Origin: Bdellovibrionota bacterium | Lineage (GTDB): Bacteria > Bdellovibrionota > FAC87 > UBA2466 | NCBI GenBank assembly: GCA_041749855.1 | Contig: JBGTAN010000040.1 | Location: 7,921-71,920, forward strand | Direction of reading: 5' to 3' | DNA length: 64,000 nt | In this document: positions 39,140-52,876 of the stretch, piece by piece | Position numbering within the stretch: the first letter of the stretch is position 1 | Layout of the letters: the number at the start of each line of letters is the position of its first letter | Program-made: the position numbers and the translations under genes | Notes under the pieces: generated by a model | Seen by the model: only the letters and a program-made list of their open reading frames with translations | Databases searched by the model: none | What the model was told of the DNA's origin: nothing

Positions 39140-39752
39140 ATGTTCCGCCTGTAAGGCCGATTGGGATGTTCAATGCCCGACGTGTGCCGGCTGTGGGGTA
39201 CTCCAAGAGTTACCCACGCAGTGGAATGCGTTTGAAGTCTTGGGAATCGATCCAGCCCTGGCATTAAATTCAGACTCCCTACGGGAGCGCTTTTACGCGC
39301 TTTCGAAGCAGACTCACCCCGATCGCTTTATTACCGCCGACCCTCAAACCGCTCTTCGAGCAGCTCGATGGTCAACTGCAGTGAATCGGGCGTATCAAAC
39401 ACTTCGGGATCAGGAAGGGCGCGTGCAGGTGTTGCGATCCGCGTTTTCACTCCCTCCTTTTGCTGCGGCAAGCAAAGTCCCGATGGAACTTGCTGAAACC
39501 TATTTTGATTTGCAAGACGCGCTGACCGAACCAGGCAGCGCCGAACACCTCATTGATTTCAAGAAGCAACTGATTGAGAAGCAGGCTGGCCTAACTCACG
39601 ATTGGGAAGCTCTCGAAGCTTCTTGGTTAGAGGCACCTCATTCAGAAGCAAGAAAAGCGCTCTTGGAAAAGGCGGCAAACCAGCTCACCGTTCGCCGTTT
39701 CTTGCGCTCCATGCTCGAAGATCTCGAGAAGAAGCAAGGTATGGCATCATGA
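39096..39752 (+). CDS. hscB: co-chaperone HscB (J-domain) with N-terminal Cys4 zinc-finger-like motif
   Basis: J-like segment [35 protein letters not shown], preceded by [18 protein letters not shown]; the start is probably a GTG at about 39111-39117. Confidence 0.75.
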
Positions 39753-41590
39753 TAGTGGGAATCGATCTCGGAACTACCCATAGCCTTATTGGGCGGATTG
39801 AAGCTGGTCGGCCCCGTTTAGCTAAGGGAGAAGATGGCAGCACTTTAATTCCTTCTGTCGTGACTTTTGTTCCGGGTGAGCCAGAGCCGGTAGTCGGCAG
39901 CCAGGCCAAGGTGCTTCGCTCACAGTTTCCTGCAACTACTTTTTACAGCTCCAAGCGGTTCATTGGTTTGGGTCTATGTGATGTCGCCCGTTGGATAGAT
40001 GTCCTGCCCTTTGATTTCAGCGAGAGCAACGATCAGATCGTTCTTTTCAAAGCACAGAGCCGAACACTTACTCCAAGTGCAATCGCCGCCTATGTTTTAC
40101 GAAACCTTAAGAGTCTTGCAGAAGCGCAATTTGGTGAAACGGTGACTAAAGCCGTTGTTACCGTGCCTGCGTACTTCAACGATGCGCAACGCCAAGCGAC
40201 CAAACTGGCCGGAGAGTTGGCAAACCTTGAGATCGTACGCATCATCAACGAACCCACAGCCGCCTGCCTCGCCTATGGACTTGAAAAAAAGAACCTGGGT
40301 CACGTCGCAGTTTTTGATTTAGGGGGAGGAACTTTCGATATTTCCATCCTTCGTGCTGTGGACGGGGTATTTGAAGTACTCGCTACTCAAGGGGATACCG
40401 CTCTGGGCGGCGATGATATGGATTTGGCGATTGTTGACGCACTTCGCCCGGAACTTTGCGCGCAGTGGGGCACCCACTGGGCACGCGCCCCAGAAGCTCG
40501 CACGGCGGCGTTGACCGCAGCAGAAACCTTGAAGAAAGCGCTGACAGACTTCGAATCAGCGGAGTTCTCCCTCACTTGCGAAGGTAAAACGTTTAAACGG
40601 CAAGTCACTCGTACGCAGTTCAATCAATGGATAACGCCTTTGATGGAAAAACTTGAGGGACCTTGCTTGGGATGTCTAAAGGACTCAGGCCTCAACGCTT
40701 CGCAGATTACGGATGTGATCTTAGTGGGGGGTAGCACGCGTGTACCGCTCGTGCGAAGTCACGTTTCGTCTCTATTTGGGAGAGACCCGATTTGCACTAT
40801 CAACCCAGATGAAGTGGTCGCCTTGGGAGCAGCTGTCCAGGCTAATATCTTATCCGGCCAAGAAGGTGGAATGACGGGCGATATGTTGTTGCTCGATGTG
40901 ATACCGCTTTCGTTAGGTATTGAAACCTTGGGCGGAGTGGTCAGCAAAATCGTGCACCGCAACTCCACGATTCCCGTCTCAGCGAGCCAAACGTTCACGA
41001 CCCATGTGGACGGGCAAGTCTCGGTGGATATTCACGTGCTGCAAGGAGAACGGGAACTGGTCTCTGGAAATCGGAGTCTAGCCCGGTTTCAACTCAAAGG
41101 AATACCTCCCCTTCCGGCAGGTGTGCCTAAGATTGAAGTGGAGTTTATTATTGATGCCAATGGCATCTTAAATGTCCGTGCTATGGAACTTCGCACAGGC
41201 ACGCGCGCAGCTGTCACCGTCAACCCCACTTTTGGTCTTTCAGACGAAACCGTGGAGCAAATGCTAAGCGACGCTTTTGAATTGGCCGAATCGGACTTCA
41301 ATACCCGCTTTCTTTTAGAAGCCAGAACCGAGGCGGATGGTATTTTGCGCGCGACTCGCAAATCCCTCGAAAAAGATGCACTTACTTCCGATCTAGAGCG
41401 GTCCAAAATTCTCGCCGCCATCGGCGAACTGGAAGAGGCGATGAGTTCAGAAGACCGCCAGTTCCTGAAATCAAAAATCGAGGCTCTCAATCAGGCCACG
41501 CAGGGCCTTGCGGAAAATCTATTGAATGCTGCCGTTCGCGAGGCGCTGCAAACCAATCAGCCACCGAATCAAACCGAAGGATCTCTATGA
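39749..41590 (+). CDS. hscA: Fe-S assembly chaperone HscA (Hsp70 family)
   Basis: [15 protein letters not shown].., [16 protein letters not shown] motifs; ATGA overlap with hscB. Confidence 0.9.
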
Positions 41591-41994: not shown

Positions 41995-43998
41995 ATGCCT
42001 CGCCTTTCACTCGCAATCTTACTGACTCTGTTCCCGGTTCATACCTGCTTTGCCCTTCCCTATTACTTCAACGCAAGTGGCACCGACCAGCCACCTGGCG
42101 CCTCATTACAAACGCTTTGGGGAAAACCATCCAGCGACAGAGCGGGCGAACTACGCACCTTACGTATCAACTTGCGCTTAAGCGGAGTCGATATCACCTC
42201 CAATGGAGACGGATTCTATTCACTCCATGTCGCGGGCCTTCAGCCGCTCGGGCAGCTCGGTGCGCCCGACCTGCAGGGTGCGGGACTGCTACTCGCCATT
42301 CCCGACGGCATCGAGCCCACACTCACCATCGTTTCCCAACAAACGCGCCAATTGGATGCGATTGCGGCGCAACCCTGCCAATTTAAAGCGCGCTGCAAAC
42401 TGCCCCGCAGCCAAGTTCAATTTCATTACGATTCGGCTCTCTACGACTCGCAGAAATCCTTTCCGGAAGCGCCCGCGATGCTTGAGGAACTGGGGCAAAT
42501 GCAGAATGTGCGCTTGGTTCGCCTGGCACTCTACCCGCTTCGGATGAATATGCCCGCTCGTACCGTGGATGTGTCGACTGACCTCGAGGTAGAAGTGGCC
42601 TTCGCCGGAAAACCACTCACGCGTTTCGTGTCACAACCTTTTCGCCAGATGATGCTTCAGACGGCCTTCAATGCCGAAGACGTCGCCCCCTTCTACGCGC
42701 CGGCTCCCCAGACCGAGACGCTTCTCATCTTTGCCGCCAATAGCCTGCGCGCAGAACTCACGCCACTCGCTGAGTGGAAACGGCAGCGCGGAATGAACGT
42801 GGAACTGCTTACTTATTCGGATGTCGGCGCTTCACGCGACAAAGCGCGCAAGTATTTGCAAGACTACTACGACAAAGCCCAGAAGAAGCCGAGCTACCTA
42901 CTCATTGTCGGCAACAACTCCTCGTTCCCTGGCTTTCGCGAAAGCACCATGAGTGGATCCGCAGCGACGGACTACCCCTACTCTTTGTTGGAAGGCGGCG
43001 ACGCCCTTCCGGACATTTTTTACGGCAGACTGCTCGCTAACGATGCCTTGGAAGCGCGCACTCAAGTACGCCGATGGATAGACTACGAAAAGGCGACGAC
43101 TGACTCCGACTGGCTCGTCAAAGCCATGACTATCGCAAGCAACGAAGGCGATGATCCCTCGGATGAAGACTACGCGCGCCAAATCGAAAGGGCGCTCAAT
43201 CGCTTCACCTACAAAGACGTGGATCTGCTCTTTCAAGCAAACAGCTCCGCAACGCACTCCAACATTTGGAGTGGGCTTAAAGAGGGTCGAAGCTGGGTGG
43301 CCTATTTCGGGCATGGGACCGGAGAGGATTGGGCCTCCACCAATAAGATGTTCAATGTGAAAGACGTCGACAAAGTCGACAACGTCGGCAGACTTCCGAT
43401 TGTTATTGATGTCGCTTGTCAGAACGCCTCTTGGGTCGACATCAATCGCTGTTTCGGCAAAGCGTGGATGACACTCGATAAGAGTGGCCTGCCGGCTGGA
43501 GCCGTCGGCTACTACGGTGGGTCCGTGAATGTGAGCTGGCACGAACCTGCCGTGATGAGTGTGGGCGTTGCAAAGTACCACTTCGAAAAGCCCGTTTACT
43601 CCTTGGGGGCAGCCGTACTTGCAGGCCAGATCTACATGATTGAGCAGATGGGATTGGGAGAGAACACGAAGGACAACCTGCGGTGGTTCAATCTCTTTGG
43701 CGACCCCTCGATGCTCATCCGGACCGACAACCCACGACGCTATTCAGTCACTCAACATGTCACATTGGGTACTACGGAGTCGGAAATTCTTGTGAAGGCT
43801 TCGGACGCGATAAATGCGGGAGTGGGAGGCCTAACCGTCTCTGTCTGGGCCCCCGGAGCCAATCAACCCCTGGCCGTGGAAACCACCGACAATCGCGGAG
43901 TGGCCGTCTTGACCCTACCCGGAGTTTCCCAAATTCCTCAGGGAAGCTTACTCACCACTTCGGGTTACAATGTAGAAACCTTCCAAACGACTCTATAG
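41995..43998 (+). CDS. secreted peptidase family C25 (gingipain-like) cysteine peptidase
   Basis: Catalytic His region VAYFGHGTGEDWAST and Cys region LPIVIDVACQNASWVDI closely resemble RgpB (AYIGHGSETAWA / FDVACVNGDF); signal peptide MPRLSLAILLTLFPVHTCFA. Confidence 0.8.
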   Translation: MPRLSLAILLTLFPVHTCFALPYYFNASGTDQPPGASLQTLWGKPSSDRAGELRTLRINLRLSGVDITSNGDGFYSLHVAGLQPLGQLGAPDLQGAGLLLAIPDGIEPTLTIVSQQTRQLDAIAAQPCQFKARCKLPRSQVQFHYDSALYDSQKSFPEAPAMLEELGQMQNVRLVRLALYPLRMNMPARTVDVSTDLEVEVAFAGKPLTRFVSQPFRQMMLQTAFNAEDVAPFYAPAPQTETLLIFAANSLRAELTPLAEWKRQRGMNVELLTYSDVGASRDKARKYLQDYYDKAQKKPSYLLIVGNNSSFPGFRESTMSGSAATDYPYSLLEGGDALPDIFYGRLLANDALEARTQVRRWIDYEKATTDSDWLVKAMTIASNEGDDPSDEDYARQIERALNRFTYKDVDLLFQANSSATHSNIWSGLKEGRSWVAYFGHGTGEDWASTNKMFNVKDVDKVDNVGRLPIVIDVACQNASWVDINRCFGKAWMTLDKSGLPAGAVGYYGGSVNVSWHEPAVMSVGVAKYHFEKPVYSLGAAVLAGQIYMIEQMGLGENTKDNLRWFNLFGDPSMLIRTDNPRRYSVTQHVTLGTTESEILVKASDAINAGVGGLTVSVWAPGANQPLAVETTDNRGVAVLTLPGVSQIPQGSLLTTSGYNVETFQTTL

Positions 43999-44544
43999 AA
44001 CGGGCGGCCGCGTCGCCGGAGTGCCCGCTTTGCACTGTGCTGCCTCCAACTCAATCTTGAGGGTCCCGCTGGTGTTCGCCGTCCAGGCATCCACATACAA
44101 TTCCAGGAATCGCTGCTTTTCGGTCGTATCGAAGTCGACGACCGCTTCTCTCTCGACAAGCTGCGTCCGGTTCATCAGCCCCAATACCTCCACCGTCTGT
44201 GTCACACCGCTTGCCACTTCGGTCAGCTCCACTTGCTCTTCTATGATGGCTTGATTGCAATGCACGAGCAGCGGCTCAGTTTTGTGAAATAGGCAGTTCA
44301 GCAAAGGCCGAGTGGAGTAAGGACTCAGTCGCACGATGCGCACTTTCATCCGGTATGTCTTTCCATCGGGCGGCGCAGCTAGCAAGACACCTACGAGCGA
44401 TCCCGACTTATTAGGCTCCTCGACTTCCAGAATAAAATGATCGGCCTCTTCACGAAAAACAAAAGCCTTTCCGCAGTCGATAATAGCGTCCTGCTTGGCC
44501 AGAAGCGGCATAGCCAAAACGAATATCAAGAAACACTTTTTCAA
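43993..44544 (-). CDS. secreted hypothetical protein, paralog 1 of a tandem pair (4 conserved Cys)
   Basis: Signal MKKCFLIFVLAMPLLA. Shares the pattern C-G..F.F.EE.D.FI..V.E.N....V..L..P.D...Y.M..RI..L....P..NC.F..T..LL..C with the adjacent gene. Confidence 0.5.
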   Translation of the reverse strand: MKKCFLIFVLAMPLLAKQDAIIDCGKAFVFREEADHFILEVEEPNKSGSLVGVLLAAPPDGKTYRMKVRIVRLSPYSTRPLLNCLFHKTEPLLVHCNQAIIEEQVELTEVASGVTQTVEVLGLMNRTQLVEREAVVDFDTTEKQRFLELYVDAWTANTSGTLKIELEAAQCKAGTPATRPPVL

Positions 44545-45155
44545 TCTTGCTCCTCATCTTGCCAGCCACGAAAAAGACGTCGCGCACCAATAGACCTGGG
44601 CTCACCAAACGAGCAAACGGTCCGTTCGAAAGACAGAATGGATTTTCCTTCTCCCAAAGACGTCTTGCCATCAAACAGAACATCTACTGTCTTTCTCGTG
44701 GTGGTCTGATCCATGCTGCTCAACATCGTCCGAGAAGTTTCCGTGGCACGTACATTCAACTGAGAAATCTTCACCGCATGAACAACGCCGGTGGGCGACG
44801 TGAGCTTCATCCGCCCCACAACCGCACCCTTACTACAGTTGAACAGCAGACCATTTGTCTGGGTGAAAAAACAATTTGGCACGGGAGGTTGCCCGGCTGC
44901 CCGCGTCAGCTTGGGAATGCGAAACTCCATGGTGTACATCTGCCGATCCACGGGCGACTTCAGGTGAGAAACGAAAGAATGAGGGACGTTGCTTTCCCTC
45001 ACCGTGAAGATGAAATCGTCCACCCCTTCTTCAAACTGAAACATCGACAAATACAGACTCGAGGTATCATCACCCCCACAACGAATGGTCGGCAATGCCG
45101 CAAAGGCCTGGAAAGAAAGAAGGAATCCCAATAGAAGAAGATGCATTTTCCCCAC
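44541..45155 (-). CDS. secreted hypothetical protein, paralog 2 of the tandem pair
   Basis: Signal MGKMHLLLLGFLLSFQAFA; same conserved Cys framework; 4-nt overlap with paralog 1. Confidence 0.5.
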   Translation of the reverse strand: MGKMHLLLLGFLLSFQAFAALPTIRCGGDDTSSLYLSMFQFEEGVDDFIFTVRESNVPHSFVSHLKSPVDRQMYTMEFRIPKLTRAAGQPPVPNCFFTQTNGLLFNCSKGAVVGRMKLTSPTGVVHAVKISQLNVRATETSRTMLSSMDQTTTRKTVDVLFDGKTSLGEGKSILSFERTVCSFGEPRSIGARRLFRGWQDEEQD

Positions 45156-45199
45156 CCCTCTCCTGTGTGACCGATTTTTTCCACCAAGGCAACCGCGAA

Positions 45200-45991
45200 C
45201 TACCGAGAAGGCGCCTTCAGCTCCGATTCACTCGGGGGTTGGATGCGATAGATTACGGGACAATGCTTGCCGGTCACCCATAAGGACTTGCCATCCCAGG
45301 CCATTCCATCGATCACGGGACACGCTTCGGTATCCGGAAGGGAAACCAGACGACTGATAGCCCCTGTCTTCGGATGCACGCGAAAAAACTGCCCTTTGTG
45401 TTCGGTGAAGCTCGAGGTCCAAATTCCTTTGCCGTCCCAAGCCAGATCTTCAAGACTCCCGACCGGAGTCTCTATCTGCCGCACCAGCTTTCCATCATCT
45501 GGATTGAGAAAATAGAGTTTTTTACTGAAGTCGCCGGTGACGATCAGGTGCGTCCCGTCATTCGTTAAGCCCCAAGCATGCACTTCGGGAACACTTCCAA
45601 TCCGAGTAAACGACAGTGCCTTTCCTGCTAGCTTCCCCTTGTAAAGGCCATTGTTGGAGAAGCTGACGTTAAACAGCGAACCCTTAAACCAGGTGAGGCT
45701 CTCACTGTAATCGGTAGCCGGCGTATACTCGGCGACTACAGTGCCATCGGCAGGAGCGATTTTAAGAAGCTTCTGCGGCAAAGCGTGCCAGAGAAAGCCC
45801 TCGTGAAAGTCGAGGCCTTCCGAATAGCCGGAGTGCGGAATTTGGCCAAGAACCTTGGCGGTGAGAGGCGAAGTGACCGGGGAAACCCGACCCGCCGTGC
45901 TGGTCGCATGGACGCTACCATTCAGCAGTAGAAACATGGCCGCAATGAGCCACTTCCCATTTATGTCACTGCCAACGCCGCAATCCGTCAT
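45200..45991 (-). CDS. glutaminyl-peptide cyclotransferase (plant/bacterial beta-propeller type)
   Basis: SGYSEGLDFHEGFLWHALPQ.., ..WGLTNDGTHLIVTGDFSKKLYFLNPDDGKL.. and ..LEDLAWDGKGIWTS.. match the bacterial glutaminyl-cyclase propeller; N-terminal signal. Confidence 0.65.
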   Translation of the reverse strand: MTDCGVGSDINGKWLIAAMFLLLNGSVHATSTAGRVSPVTSPLTAKVLGQIPHSGYSEGLDFHEGFLWHALPQKLLKIAPADGTVVAEYTPATDYSESLTWFKGSLFNVSFSNNGLYKGKLAGKALSFTRIGSVPEVHAWGLTNDGTHLIVTGDFSKKLYFLNPDDGKLVRQIETPVGSLEDLAWDGKGIWTSSFTEHKGQFFRVHPKTGAISRLVSLPDTEACPVIDGMAWDGKSLWVTGKHCPVIYRIQPPSESELKAPSR

Positions 45992-46241
45992 TCGAAGCGC
46001 CTTTCCTGCCATACGCGATCCGCTAATTACTGGGTATCACACAGAGTTGCCACTTTGCCACGGTGGCACACCGCTTGCTCTTTACAGAAGTCAGGTATGG
46101 CAATCAGTACATTTTAAAAAAAAGTTTCTAACCAAGACTCACTTAGAGTCGACTAAGCAGAGACTTTCGACGGATCTATCCTGGTTTCCCCAATACCCTG
46201 AACGAGTATGCTTCCAGCTCCGTCGACGTTCGCTCTGTGCA

Positions 46242-46282: not shown

Positions 46283-47140
46283 CTAGCGTCCGCGTTTCAA
46301 GTTCGAAAGCGCAATCAAGATTAATAAGAAAATGATCAAAGCGACGATGAGGAACTTCAGCAAGAACCACCAGTCGGTGGCTTCGGATTTCCTGCGTTGC
46401 GCTTCCTCAATCTGAAGCATCGCCTCATTCTGAGCGCGACGGGAATCTGCCCCAGAGGATTTATCCTGGCTCGTCGTCGCATCGTTTTTCGATTCCCCTT
46501 TGCGCACTTCGCGATCACCGGCTTCGCCTGAAGACTCTCCACTCCCCCCTCCGCCGCTGCCCGATCCGTAGGTCGCTCGCGAAGCGGCATCAGCCCCCTC
46601 ACCGCCGCCCTCTTTCCCCTTATTCCCATCGAAGAAGTTGGAATCCATTCCCCCTCCTTGACCAAATCCAGAGCCACCGCCCGCGCCTGCTCCGCCTCCG
46701 ACATTGCCTGCTCCGCCTACGCCACCGCGTCCTCCCACATCACCGGACCCGCCAACCCCGGCTTCGCCCTTACCGACGTTGCCACTTCCGCCTATAGCTC
46801 CGCCGCCCGCGCCGATATCGCCTGTTCCTCCCACGTTCCCCGTATTGCCAACATTACCGGAACCGCCGACCTCGCCGCCCCCCGTGCCGACATTGCCCTC
46901 CCCGTTTCCGGTATTGCCCTGCCGTTCCGCCGAGAACCAGATATTGGGAACAGGACGTTTAGGGGTTTGAGCGATAAAGTCCACCAGCTGTTGGCGGTTT
47001 CCCGACAGAGCCCCCATCATGCGATCGCCAAGGGTCGCGCGAATAATAGGAATGGCAACGGCCGCAACCACAGCGGTTACCATGAGGTAGTCCACCACCC
47101 CAGCGCCGCGGCGCCCCAACTTGAATGAAAGTGAATTCAT
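46283..47140 (-). CDS. Flp/Fap-pilin-like N-terminal domain fused to Gly-rich (GNVG-type) repeat region and C-terminal transmembrane anchor
   Basis: N-terminus ..RRGAGVVDYLMVTAVVAAVAIPII.. matches the Flp prepilin motif G/(A)TAIEYGLI..LIAVVI (D in place of E). About 180 aa of G-N-V-G/G-x-x-G repeats follow, then hydrophobic WWFLLKFLIVALIIFLLILIAL + KRGR. Confidence 0.5.
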   Translation of the reverse strand: MNSLSFKLGRRGAGVVDYLMVTAVVAAVAIPIIRATLGDRMMGALSGNRQQLVDFIAQTPKRPVPNIWFSAERQGNTGNGEGNVGTGGGEVGGSGNVGNTGNVGGTGDIGAGGGAIGGSGNVGKGEAGVGGSGDVGGRGGVGGAGNVGGGAGAGGGSGFGQGGGMDSNFFDGNKGKEGGGEGADAASRATYGSGSGGGGSGESSGEAGDREVRKGESKNDATTSQDKSSGADSRRAQNEAMLQIEEAQRRKSEATDWWFLLKFLIVALIIFLLILIALSNLKRGR

Positions 47141-52156: not shown

Positions 52157-52876
52157 ATGACCTGGCTACGCAACCTAACTGGAATAGCCCTGATTCTTGC
52201 CAGCGTCGCAAACGCTGAAAGCACTCAACCCGAGTACCCCGGCGTAGCGGACCCCTTCGCCGATCCCGGCCAATACGAATTTGCCGACGACGAGAAGGAA
52301 GATAAAGAGTTCTTCCACCTCGGCCGATTCTTCATGATGGGACTCGACGTAGGCGCCGGTGTTTTCACGGGTGGACTGGGCGCTTCCGCAGGAGCGGGCA
52401 TGCAGTTTGGAGCACGCGTTTTATATTTCTTTGACCGCTCTATCGCATTTGAAGGACGCATTCACTATTCCAATCACCTCGACGTGACGCCCGTGAACGG
52501 ATCTTCCTACGATCTGGAAACCAATCTCATCGAAGCTGCCGTGGGCTTTCGCTATTACTTCGATACGAAAAGCGCCCCCCGCGCGATTGCGATCGCAAAT
52601 CCGTATTTGGGGTTTGGTGCCGGCCTTTACTCCCGGGACCAAATCGTAGTGCGGGCCGCAACCGGATTTCCAGAACCCGAGCCCTCTTCCAGCTTTGGTG
52701 GCAATGCCGGCGGCGGCGTTGAGTTTCTCGTGTATCGAAAACACATCTACGTCGGGCTCGACCTGCGCTACCACATGATTTTCTTCCCCGATGAGAACTT
52801 GTCCTGGAACGGCGCGGTAGGGGGCCGAGCGGGCGACTATTTCACGACTCTGTTCACCGTGACGTACAACTTTTAA
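52157..52876 (+). CDS. outer-membrane beta-barrel protein (hypothetical)
   Basis: Signal MTWLRNLTGIALILASVANA, beta-strand periodicity, C-terminal ..TVTYNF. Confidence 0.45.
   Translation: MTWLRNLTGIALILASVANAESTQPEYPGVADPFADPGQYEFADDEKEDKEFFHLGRFFMMGLDVGAGVFTGGLGASAGAGMQFGARVLYFFDRSIAFEGRIHYSNHLDVTPVNGSSYDLETNLIEAAVGFRYYFDTKSAPRAIAIANPYLGFGAGLYSRDQIVVRAATGFPEPEPSSSFGGNAGGGVEFLVYRKHIYVGLDLRYHMIFFPDENLSWNGAVGGRAGDYFTTLFTVTYNF

What the first reader, a model, noticed from the sequence alone, without database searches (positions are those of the whole stretch)
41995..46012. Gingipain-like C25 peptidase followed by two tandem paralogous Cys-framework secreted proteins and a glutaminyl cyclase
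A secreted C25 cysteine peptidase with RgpB-like catalytic His/Cys contexts (41995-43998) is followed convergently by two translationally coupled paralogs (43993-44544 and 44541-45155; 4-nt overlap). Both paralogs have signal peptides and an identical four-Cys framework but no recognisable domain. Next comes a beta-propeller glutaminyl-peptide cyclotransferase (45200-45991). In Porphyromonas, glutaminyl cyclase is functionally tied to gingipain/secretome maturation. Here the same enzyme sits beside a C25 peptidase in an apparently non-Bacteroidetes genome, together with an uncharacterised duplicated secreted family. These could be cognate inhibitors, chaperones or substrates. Together this looks like a compact, undescribed protease-maturation or protease-control module.
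Basis: partly seen in the sequence, partly recalled or inferred. Interest (0 to 1): 0.62.

Follow-up and report, generated by a model that had tools for sequence, protein, structure and literature searches.

The report
Gingipain-like protease, cyclase, barrel-protein pair
A predatory-bacterium (Bdellovibrionota) genome piece carries a gingipain-like protease back-to-back with a small operon encoding a divergent glutaminyl-cyclase-like enzyme and an ancient pair of undescribed secreted barrel proteins; the genes are real, but evidence that they form one protease-control module is weak.

Summary
All four genes exist as described. The C25 peptidase (41995-43998) has a prodomain, a catalytic domain and the RgpB-type His440/Cys475 dyad. 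The two small proteins are true paralogs (E 7e-18) with four conserved Cys and a 4-nt overlap. The last gene is a Pfam Glu_cyclase_2 member.

- C25-QC adjacency recurs in 26 loci of one Bdellovibrionota clade. It sits inside a larger conserved block (isc operon ... Mpl, BamB-like), the two genes are convergent, and more distant C25 loci have no QC.
- The cyclase is a type I beta-propeller, not the type II enzyme of Porphyromonas. One of its four active-site residues is changed (N155 to Glu).
- About 19 of 49 C25 orthologues have Gln at +1 after the signal peptide, against 5 of 89 background proteins. This hints at pyroglutamylation in relatives. The window's own C25 starts with Leu.
- The two small proteins are not a recent duplication. 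They are an old alpha/beta cassette, usually translationally coupled, and it also occurs in five contexts without C25 or QC.
- The family is tiny (22 representatives in 1.84 billion proteins). It has a confident lipocalin-like barrel model, no characterised relative and no resemblance to known protease inhibitors.

Function of the pair remains inferred.

The parts
41995..43998 (+). Secreted gingipain-family (C25) cysteine peptidase zymogen, 667 aa. Predicted signal peptide is res 1-20 (CFA|LPYYF), prodomain about res 63-207, catalytic domain res 244-573, followed by a C-terminal Ig-like region. No T9SS C-terminal sorting domain.
   Evidence: Pfam PF08126 and PF01364; RgpB 1cvr E 8.7e-38 and Kgp prodomain 5mun E 2.8e-11; about 55 orthologues of the same architecture in Bdellovibrionota-type MAGs; no Pfam or NCBIfam sorting-domain hit, only far-sub-threshold PorU-type matches.
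43312..43314 (+). Codon of catalytic His440 (FGHG), equivalent to RgpB His211.
   Evidence: HMMER alignment to 1cvr; invariant in alignment A3.
43417..43419 (+). Codon of catalytic Cys475 (DVAC), equivalent to RgpB Cys244.
   Evidence: HMMER alignment to 1cvr; invariant in alignment A3.
45200..46012 (-). Divergent type I (beta-propeller) glutaminyl-cyclase-like protein with a signal-peptide-like N-terminus. It is the first gene of the minus-strand QC-alpha-beta unit. Active-site equivalents are E65 (papaya Q24), E104 (E69), E188 (N155, changed) and K249 (K225).
   Evidence: Pfam PF05096 at 63 bits; family profile against 3nol (2e-14), 3mbr and 2faw; residue roles from PMC5837995; invariants in 15 syntenic orthologues.
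44541..45155 (-). Motifs are LPTIxC, FEEGVDDF and RIPK. It lies 51 nt downstream of the QC stop.
43993..44544 (-). Its own stop overlaps the C25 stop by 6 nt.

Best explanation
The region is a conserved stretch of a Bdellovibrionota chromosome (relatives are labelled Pseudobdellovibrionaceae or Bdellovibrionales). It holds two separate units placed tail to tail.

Unit 1 is a secreted gingipain-family zymogen: signal peptide, inhibitory-type prodomain, a catalytic domain with an intact His/Cys dyad, and an Ig-like tail without a T9SS sorting domain. It most likely acts as an extracytoplasmic protease of the predator. The fold and dyad are shown; the substrate and role are inferred.

Unit 2 is a minus-strand operon. 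Its first gene encodes a divergent type I glutaminyl-cyclase-like beta-propeller. The next two encode a translationally coupled alpha/beta pair of a previously undescribed family of secreted, disulfide-bonded, lipocalin-like barrel proteins.

The C25-QC neighbourhood is ancestral in this clade. It probably reflects a real but loose link: in many relatives the pro-peptidase begins with Gln (or Glu) after signal cleavage and is a plausible pyroglutamylation substrate. In this window the peptidase begins with Leu, so that link, if it ever existed, is not operating at that site.

The alpha/beta pair is a self-contained cassette that has landed between QC and C25 in this sub-lineage. The conserved alpha-then-beta order and the stop/start overlaps suggest that the two proteins act together, probably as a heterodimer, in the periplasm or outside the cell. 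My best guess for their role is a binding or shielding protein, either a ligand carrier or a protease-protective factor. This last step is inference only.
For: C25 identity and dyad. Organism and family spread.

Synteny: the order isc-C25-(S)-QC-Grich-Mpl-Blac-BamB recurs. QC lies within 5 kb of C25 in 26 loci.

Gln at +1: about 19 of 49 C25 orthologues against 5 of 89 other predicted secreted proteins of the same loci, Fisher p about 2e-6 but not phylogenetically independent.

QC-like: 3 of 4 active-site residues are kept.

S family:
- Only 22 representatives among 1.84 billion proteins, all 173-228 aa.
- C24, E32 and C171 are invariant; D35, C84 and C96 are nearly invariant.
- Alpha/beta pairs with the same gene order occur in L083, L085, L088/89, L092/93 and L094 without C25 or QC.
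- Stop/start spacing across the alpha/beta-type junctions runs from -22 to +14 nt.
- Subfamily assignment of the window copies.
- The free-standing pairs share no neighbour family.
Against: No experiment or interaction prediction links any two of these proteins.

Gln+1 does not track QC adjacency well. Among QC-linked C25 genes the +1 residue is Q in 4, E in 5, D in 4 and something else in about 11.

The signal-peptide sites come from a crude home-made predictor.

The QC-like clade has Glu in place of the strictly conserved N155, so cyclase activity is not assured.

Confidence: 0.55

Rival explanations
1. One reading: one dedicated protease-maturation and control module. The QC matures the C25 zymogen, and the two small proteins are its cognate periplasmic inhibitors or chaperones, analogous to staphopain and staphostatin.
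For: The genes abut without intergenic space. C25-QC adjacency survives loss of both flanking blocks in L007, L008 and L015. Gln+1 is enriched in C25 orthologues. S genes vary in copy number from 0 to 3 and diverge fast, as inhibitor or immunity genes often do. One free-standing pair sits directly upstream of a trypsin-like protease. The fold is a compact disulfide-bonded barrel of the lipocalin type, the class staphostatins belong to (own knowledge).
Confidence: 0.15
2. Plain synteny: three unrelated kinds of secreted-protein gene lie together only because gene order is conserved in this family-level clade. There is no functional coupling between C25, QC and S.
For: The conserved block extends to the isc operon upstream and to Mpl, a beta-lactamase-like gene and a BamB-like gene downstream, which have nothing to do with proteases. 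C25 and QC are convergent. QC is lost in L026 while the flanks stay. C25 lacks QC in L010, L023, L029, L030 and L041, and in all loci L042-L082.
Against: Gln+1 enrichment in the C25 family in a clade with no general Q-rule. The C25-QC pair is kept where the flanks differ (L007, L008, L015) and in a different orientation in L025.
Confidence: 0.25
3. The functional unit is QC plus S. The barrel proteins are substrates or partners of the cyclase-like propeller, for example with N-termini cyclised for protease resistance, and C25 is a bystander.
For: Wherever S is C25-linked, it lies directly downstream of QC on the same strand. Several S proteins have Gln or Glu at the predicted +1: Gln in L083, L085 and L088 alpha; Glu in L001, L083, L088 and L092 beta.
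Against: The window's own S proteins start with Ala (or Leu) and Lys. Free-standing S pairs have no QC nearby. Most QC genes of the clade have no S gene after them.
Confidence: 0.05

Closest known systems
Gingipain R (RgpB) of Porphyromonas gingivalis, peptidase family C25
   Same: N-terminal prodomain, a caspase-like catalytic domain with an aligned His/Cys dyad and an acidic residue at the Glu152 position, and an Ig-like segment after the catalytic domain.
   Different: No T9SS C-terminal sorting domain. The host phylum is Bdellovibrionota. The aligned catalytic region is only distantly similar to RgpB (E 8.7e-38, 133 bits). Specificity is unknown. The window protein lacks the N-terminal Gln of the gingipains.
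Bacteroidetes Q-rule and PgQC (type II glutaminyl cyclase acting on SPI substrates, including gingipains)
   Same: A cyclase-type gene is associated with a C25 protease, and many C25 orthologues begin with Gln after the signal peptide.
   Different: PgQC has the unrelated type II alpha/beta-hydrolase fold and is an inner-membrane lipoprotein. It acts on about 77% of SPI substrates and is not encoded next to the gingipains (PMC7948796, PMC10653852). Here the enzyme is a type I propeller, and the background Gln+1 rate is only 5.6%.
Type I (plant/bacterial) glutaminyl cyclases: papaya QC 2faw, Xanthomonas 3mbr, Zymomonas 3nol
   Same: Full-length homology to the five-bladed propeller family. Equivalents of Q24 (as Glu, as in XcQC), E69 and K225 are conserved.
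   Different: N155 is replaced by an invariant Glu (LEDLAW instead of LNELEW/Y). There is an extra conserved Cys pair (C231/C251). Matches to the solved QCs are weak (E 2e-14 at best with a family profile).
Staphopain-staphostatin operons (a protease with a co-encoded lipocalin-like barrel inhibitor)
   Same: A small beta-barrel protein is encoded beside a cysteine protease. The general barrel class is the same.
   Different: Staphostatins are cytoplasmic, single-copy, co-transcribed downstream of their protease, and about 110 aa. The S proteins are secreted, about 160 aa mature with four Cys, paired as alpha/beta, convergent to the protease, and also found without any protease. No structural hit to staphostatin appeared.

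Membership tests
Peptidase family C25 (gingipain) | Catalytic His-Cys dyad in the GHG ... DVAC context | tested here: met
   His440 and Cys475 align to RgpB His211 and Cys244 and are invariant in 15 orthologues.
Peptidase family C25 (gingipain) | Pfam PF01364 above the curated threshold, plus the PF08126 prodomain | tested here: met
   185 bits (cut-off 23) and 42.9 bits (cut-off 22).
Peptidase family C25 (gingipain) | T9SS C-terminal sorting domain, as in the Bacteroidetes gingipains | tested here: not met
   No Pfam or NCBIfam sorting-domain hit. The PorU-type matches are far below cut-off (66.7 against 420 bits).
Peptidase family C25 (gingipain) | Arg- or Lys-specific S1 pocket (Asp163 in RgpB) | tested here: inconclusive
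   The alignment around RgpB Asp163 has a 5-residue gap. An invariant 'PSD' Asp390 lies nearby.
Type I glutaminyl cyclase (PF05096) | Family HMM above the curated threshold over the full length | tested here: met
   63 bits against 22.3, model positions 18-248 of 249. Profile hits to 3nol, 3mbr and 2faw.
Type I glutaminyl cyclase (PF05096) | Active-site residues Q24/E, E69, N155 and K225 (papaya numbering, PMC5837995) | tested here: not met
   E65, E104 and K249 are conserved, but N155 is replaced by the invariant Glu188.
Type I glutaminyl cyclase (PF05096) | Cyclase activity on N-terminal Gln | not testable with these tools
   Needs an enzyme assay.
Type II glutaminyl cyclase (PgQC / human QC type) | Alpha/beta-hydrolase, aminopeptidase-like fold with Zn ligands | tested here: not met
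   Only propeller-family hits; no peptidase-like domain. PgQC is type II (PMC7948796).
Q-rule secretome (Bacteroidetes type) | Most SPI substrates have Gln at +1 | tested here: not met
   5 of 89 (5.6%) predicted secreted non-C25 proteins in the window and related loci, using a crude predictor.
Known cysteine-protease inhibitor folds (staphostatin, chagasin, cystatin) | Structural similarity of the small proteins to these folds | tested here: not met
Lipocalin/calycin-type beta-barrels | Up-and-down antiparallel barrel with significant structural match | tested here: inconclusive
S family (undescribed; defined here) | Signal peptide, four Cys (after the signal peptide, a hairpin pair 12 residues apart, and near the C-terminus), and the F-x-x-E-x-x-D-x-[YF] motif | tested here: met
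   Both window proteins carry all of these. Subfamily alpha and beta are assigned.

The most novel reading that the evidence does not exclude
In this Bdellovibrionota clade, which has no general Q-rule, the neighbouring type I cyclase-like enzyme is a dedicated pyroglutamyl-forming enzyme for the gingipain-like zymogen. This would be convergent with the Porphyromonas arrangement but use the unrelated cyclase fold. In addition, the alpha/beta barrel pair would be a new class of heterodimeric periplasmic guard that protects the predator from its own secreted proteases (C25 here, trypsin-like in L088).
Probability: 0.1. Interest if true: 0.65.

Novelty: new variant of a known kind. Interest (0 to 1): 0.4.

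Why it matters
Gingipain-type proteases are studied almost only in oral Bacteroidetes. Here the same enzyme family, without its T9SS tail, is widespread in predatory Bdellovibrionota. In one clade it keeps a cyclase-like gene next door, and often an N-terminal Gln, although the phylum lacks the Q-rule. That would give a simple natural system for asking what N-terminal pyroglutamate does for a C25 zymogen.

The alpha/beta barrel pair is a clean, very small, structurally confident family with no known relative. It is a tractable target for finding a new periplasmic function in predatory bacteria.

None of this is established. The safest statement is that the genes are real, that two of the three kinds are ordinary members or variants of known families, and that the third is an orphan family.

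Tried and rejected
- Exact look-ups of the window's small protein found no contig on record. The four proteins are singletons from one 73,961-bp NCBI contig.
- The word-indexed homologue search for the pair found only the window's own proteins. Repeated with 23 sequences it returned only 3. The exhaustive HMMER search was needed.
- I looked for divergent S genes in the 0.8-3 kb gaps between C25 and QC in other loci. The gaps hold unrelated genes, including a large polytopic membrane protein, a Rieske-type gene and small lipoproteins.
- The AlphaFold-database fold library was unavailable.
With the alpha subset it confirmed only one locus.
- I looked for a conserved Arg/Lys-Gln site at the prodomain/catalytic junction that could create a cyclase substrate on autoprocessing. 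None is conserved.
- I checked whether the unknown neighbours of free-standing S pairs are related to each other. They are not.
- Promoter and terminator scans gave nothing above shuffled expectation. Rfam found no RNA element in the region.


Full report
**Observation**

The plus-strand ORF 41995-43998 (667 aa) matches Pfam Propeptide_C25 (residues 63-207) and Peptidase_C25 (residues 244-573, E 2.8e-54). Against solved structures it aligns to gingipain R (1cvr, E 8.7e-38) and to the Kgp prodomain (5mun). 'FGHG' and 'DVAC' lie on the catalytic His211 and Cys244 of RgpB. His440 and Cys475 are invariant in an alignment of 15 orthologues, and the acidic residue at the RgpB Glu152 position is kept as Glu or Asp. 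No T9SS sorting domain is detected.

On the minus strand, 45200-46012 matches Pfam Glu_cyclase_2 (63 bits, cut-off 22.3). 44541-45155 and 43993-44544 have no family match. The two small proteins are paralogs (BLASTP E 7e-18, 29% identity) with four aligned Cys. The sequence shows the TTGA stop/start overlap, Shine-Dalgarno-like motifs before both starts, and a 6-nt convergent overlap of the downstream paralog with the end of the C25 gene.

**Organism and spread of the peptidase**

All four proteins are singletons from one 73,961-bp NCBI contig. About 55 proteins share the C25 architecture at 38-54% identity, and those carrying an informative name are labelled Bdellovibrionales, Deltaproteobacteria or Proteobacteria MAGs. 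A scan of species-representative genomes returned 79 loci. Almost all are Bdellovibrionota (Pseudobdellovibrionaceae, Bdellovibrionaceae, Bacteriovoracaceae, Oligoflexales), with a few longer multidomain relatives in Sumerlaeota and Acidobacteriota.

**Linkage of C25 and the cyclase-like gene**

Profile searches of all ORFs in the loci find a QC-like gene within 5 kb downstream of C25, almost always convergent, in 26 loci. These are the window, L001, L003, L004, L006-L009, L011-L013, L015-L018, L020-L022, L024, L025, L027, L028, L033, L040, L084 and L086. It is absent despite at least 3 kb of flank in L010, L014, L023, L026, L029, L030, L031 and L041, and in every locus L042-L082.

The adjacency is embedded in a longer conserved order: isc operon, C25, (S), QC, a Gly-rich protein, Mpl, a beta-lactamase-like gene and a BamB-like gene. 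Much of it can therefore be explained by clade-level synteny. Modest evidence for something more comes from L007, L008 and L015, where the pair persists without either flank, and from L025, where QC is on the other strand behind an inserted gene.

**What kind of cyclase**

The literature separates two unrelated classes. P. gingivalis has the mammalian-like type II enzyme (PMC7948796). That enzyme is an inner-membrane lipoprotein acting on about 77% of signal-peptidase I substrates, and replacing the N-terminal Gln of the gingipains had only minor effects (PMC10653852, PMC5837995). The window's protein belongs to the type I propeller class.

With a profile of 15 syntenic orthologues it aligns to Zymomonas, Xanthomonas and papaya QCs (E 2e-14 to 4e-10). 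Of the four papaya active-site residues named in PMC5837995 (Q24, E69, N155, K225), three are conserved: E65 (the natural Glu variant also found in XcQC), E104 and K249. N155, strictly conserved in the Bacteroidetes orthologues, is replaced by an invariant Glu188. It is therefore a divergent QC-like clade, and its activity needs testing.

**Is the peptidase a plausible substrate?**

The N-termini of the C25 orthologues show a recurrent '(A/G)|Q-R-x-x-F' after the hydrophobic segment. A homology-anchored count gives Gln at the predicted +1 in about 19 of 49 orthologues, and Glu in 4. A crude signal-peptide predictor applied to all other ORFs of the window and loci L001-L041 gives Gln at +1 in 5 of 89, or 5.6%. 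So there is no general Q-rule here, and the C25 family is enriched (Fisher p about 2e-6, not corrected for shared ancestry).

Among QC-linked C25 genes, however, the +1 residue is Q in 4, E in 5, D in 4 and something else in about 11. The window's own protein reads CFA|LPYYF. No conserved Arg/Lys-Gln site exists at the prodomain junction. The pyroglutamylation link is a reasonable hypothesis for relatives and is not supported for this window.

**The small proteins**

The word-indexed search found only the window's own two proteins. The exhaustive HMMER search found 22 representatives among 1.84 billion, all 173-228 aa. Their alignment shows a signal peptide, 'LPTIxC', 'FEEGIDDY', 'RIPK', 'PxCxF...PLLFxC' and a C-terminal 'CxxGE..PxR'. 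C24, E32 and C171 are invariant, and D35, C84 and C96 are nearly so. None of the 23 members matches a Pfam family, and the profile matches no PDB sequence.

**Context of the small proteins**

Next to C25 and QC the family appears only in the window's nearest relatives. The copy numbers are: window 2, L001 1, L003 1, L004 (the same contig as L090) 3, L005 1, L006 1, L084 1 and L086 2. It always lies directly downstream of QC. In most C25-QC loci the QC gene abuts C25 with no room for it, and the larger gaps elsewhere hold unrelated genes.

Starting from divergent family members, I found tandem pairs with neither C25 nor QC in five contexts:
- L083.
- L085.
- L088/L089, where a trypsin-like protease follows on the same strand.
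- L092/L093.
- L094, which lies about 140 kb from the C25 locus on the same 760-kb contig as L003.

These pairs share no neighbour family. A distance tree, and subfamily HMMs built only from the free-standing pairs, show two old subfamilies. Alpha is the upstream gene and beta the downstream gene. The window's QC-side copy is alpha (114 against 46 bits) and its C25-side copy is beta (71 against 47 bits). The single C25-linked copies in relatives score as alpha, or about equally for both subfamilies in L006. Stop/start spacing across the alpha/beta-type junctions ranges from a 22-nt overlap to a 14-nt gap.

That points to joint action, probably a heterodimer, and argues against a dedicated C25 partner.

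**Verdict**

What is there is settled: a bona fide C25 zymogen, and tail to tail with it a probable operon of a divergent type I QC-like gene and an alpha/beta pair of an orphan secreted barrel family. How it works is only partly inferable.

I put about 0.55 on the picture of two separate units with a loose, lineage-dependent QC-C25 link and an independent alpha/beta cassette.

The novelty lies in a variant of the known gingipain/pyroglutamate theme in another phylum with the other cyclase fold, and in a new small protein family. Neither is shown to be a new kind of system.

Noticed in passing
window 46283-47140 (-): A 285-aa Gly-rich protein with an Flp-pilin-like N-terminus (…GAG|VVDYLMVTAVVAAVAI…) and a C-terminal transmembrane segment. 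It is conserved between the QC-like gene and Mpl in most related loci that extend far enough downstream.
   Followed up: partly
L008, L009, L011, L012, L014, L019 (C25 matches at about 5.7 kb and 7.9 kb in each; about 2.0 kb and 4.1 kb in L019): Relatives carry two tandem C25 genes. In most, the downstream (QC-proximal) copy starts with Gln or Glu after the signal peptide and the upstream copy with Asp or Arg; in L019 both start with Gln.
   Followed up: partly
L088 5457-8132 and L089 1262-3937: A free-standing alpha/beta pair lies 102 nt upstream, on the same strand, of a 502-aa trypsin-like (PF00089) protease. This is a second, different protease family next to the cassette.
   Followed up: partly
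L094 7001-8136 (same 760-kb contig as L003): One genome has both a C25-linked single alpha copy and a separate alpha/beta pair about 140 kb away.
   Followed up: yes
window 52164-52247 (-): ARAGORN calls a tRNA-Ala here, but Rfam at gathering threshold does not, and the call lies inside ORF 52157-52876(+), which encodes a predicted secreted protein. It is probably a false positive.
   Followed up: no
window 45200-46012 (-) and its orthologues: The QC-like clade has two invariant Cys (C231, C251), a likely extra disulfide, besides the N155-to-Glu change.
   Followed up: partly
L040 294-2204: This distant C25 orthologue (32% identity) still has QC 81 nt downstream. It has a lipobox-like 'LAAC' instead of a signal-peptidase I site.
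   Followed up: no
window 39602-41590 (+): The HscA ORF as listed starts at a TTG that overlaps HscB by about 150 nt. The true start is probably the Met before 'IVGIDLGTT'.
   Followed up: no
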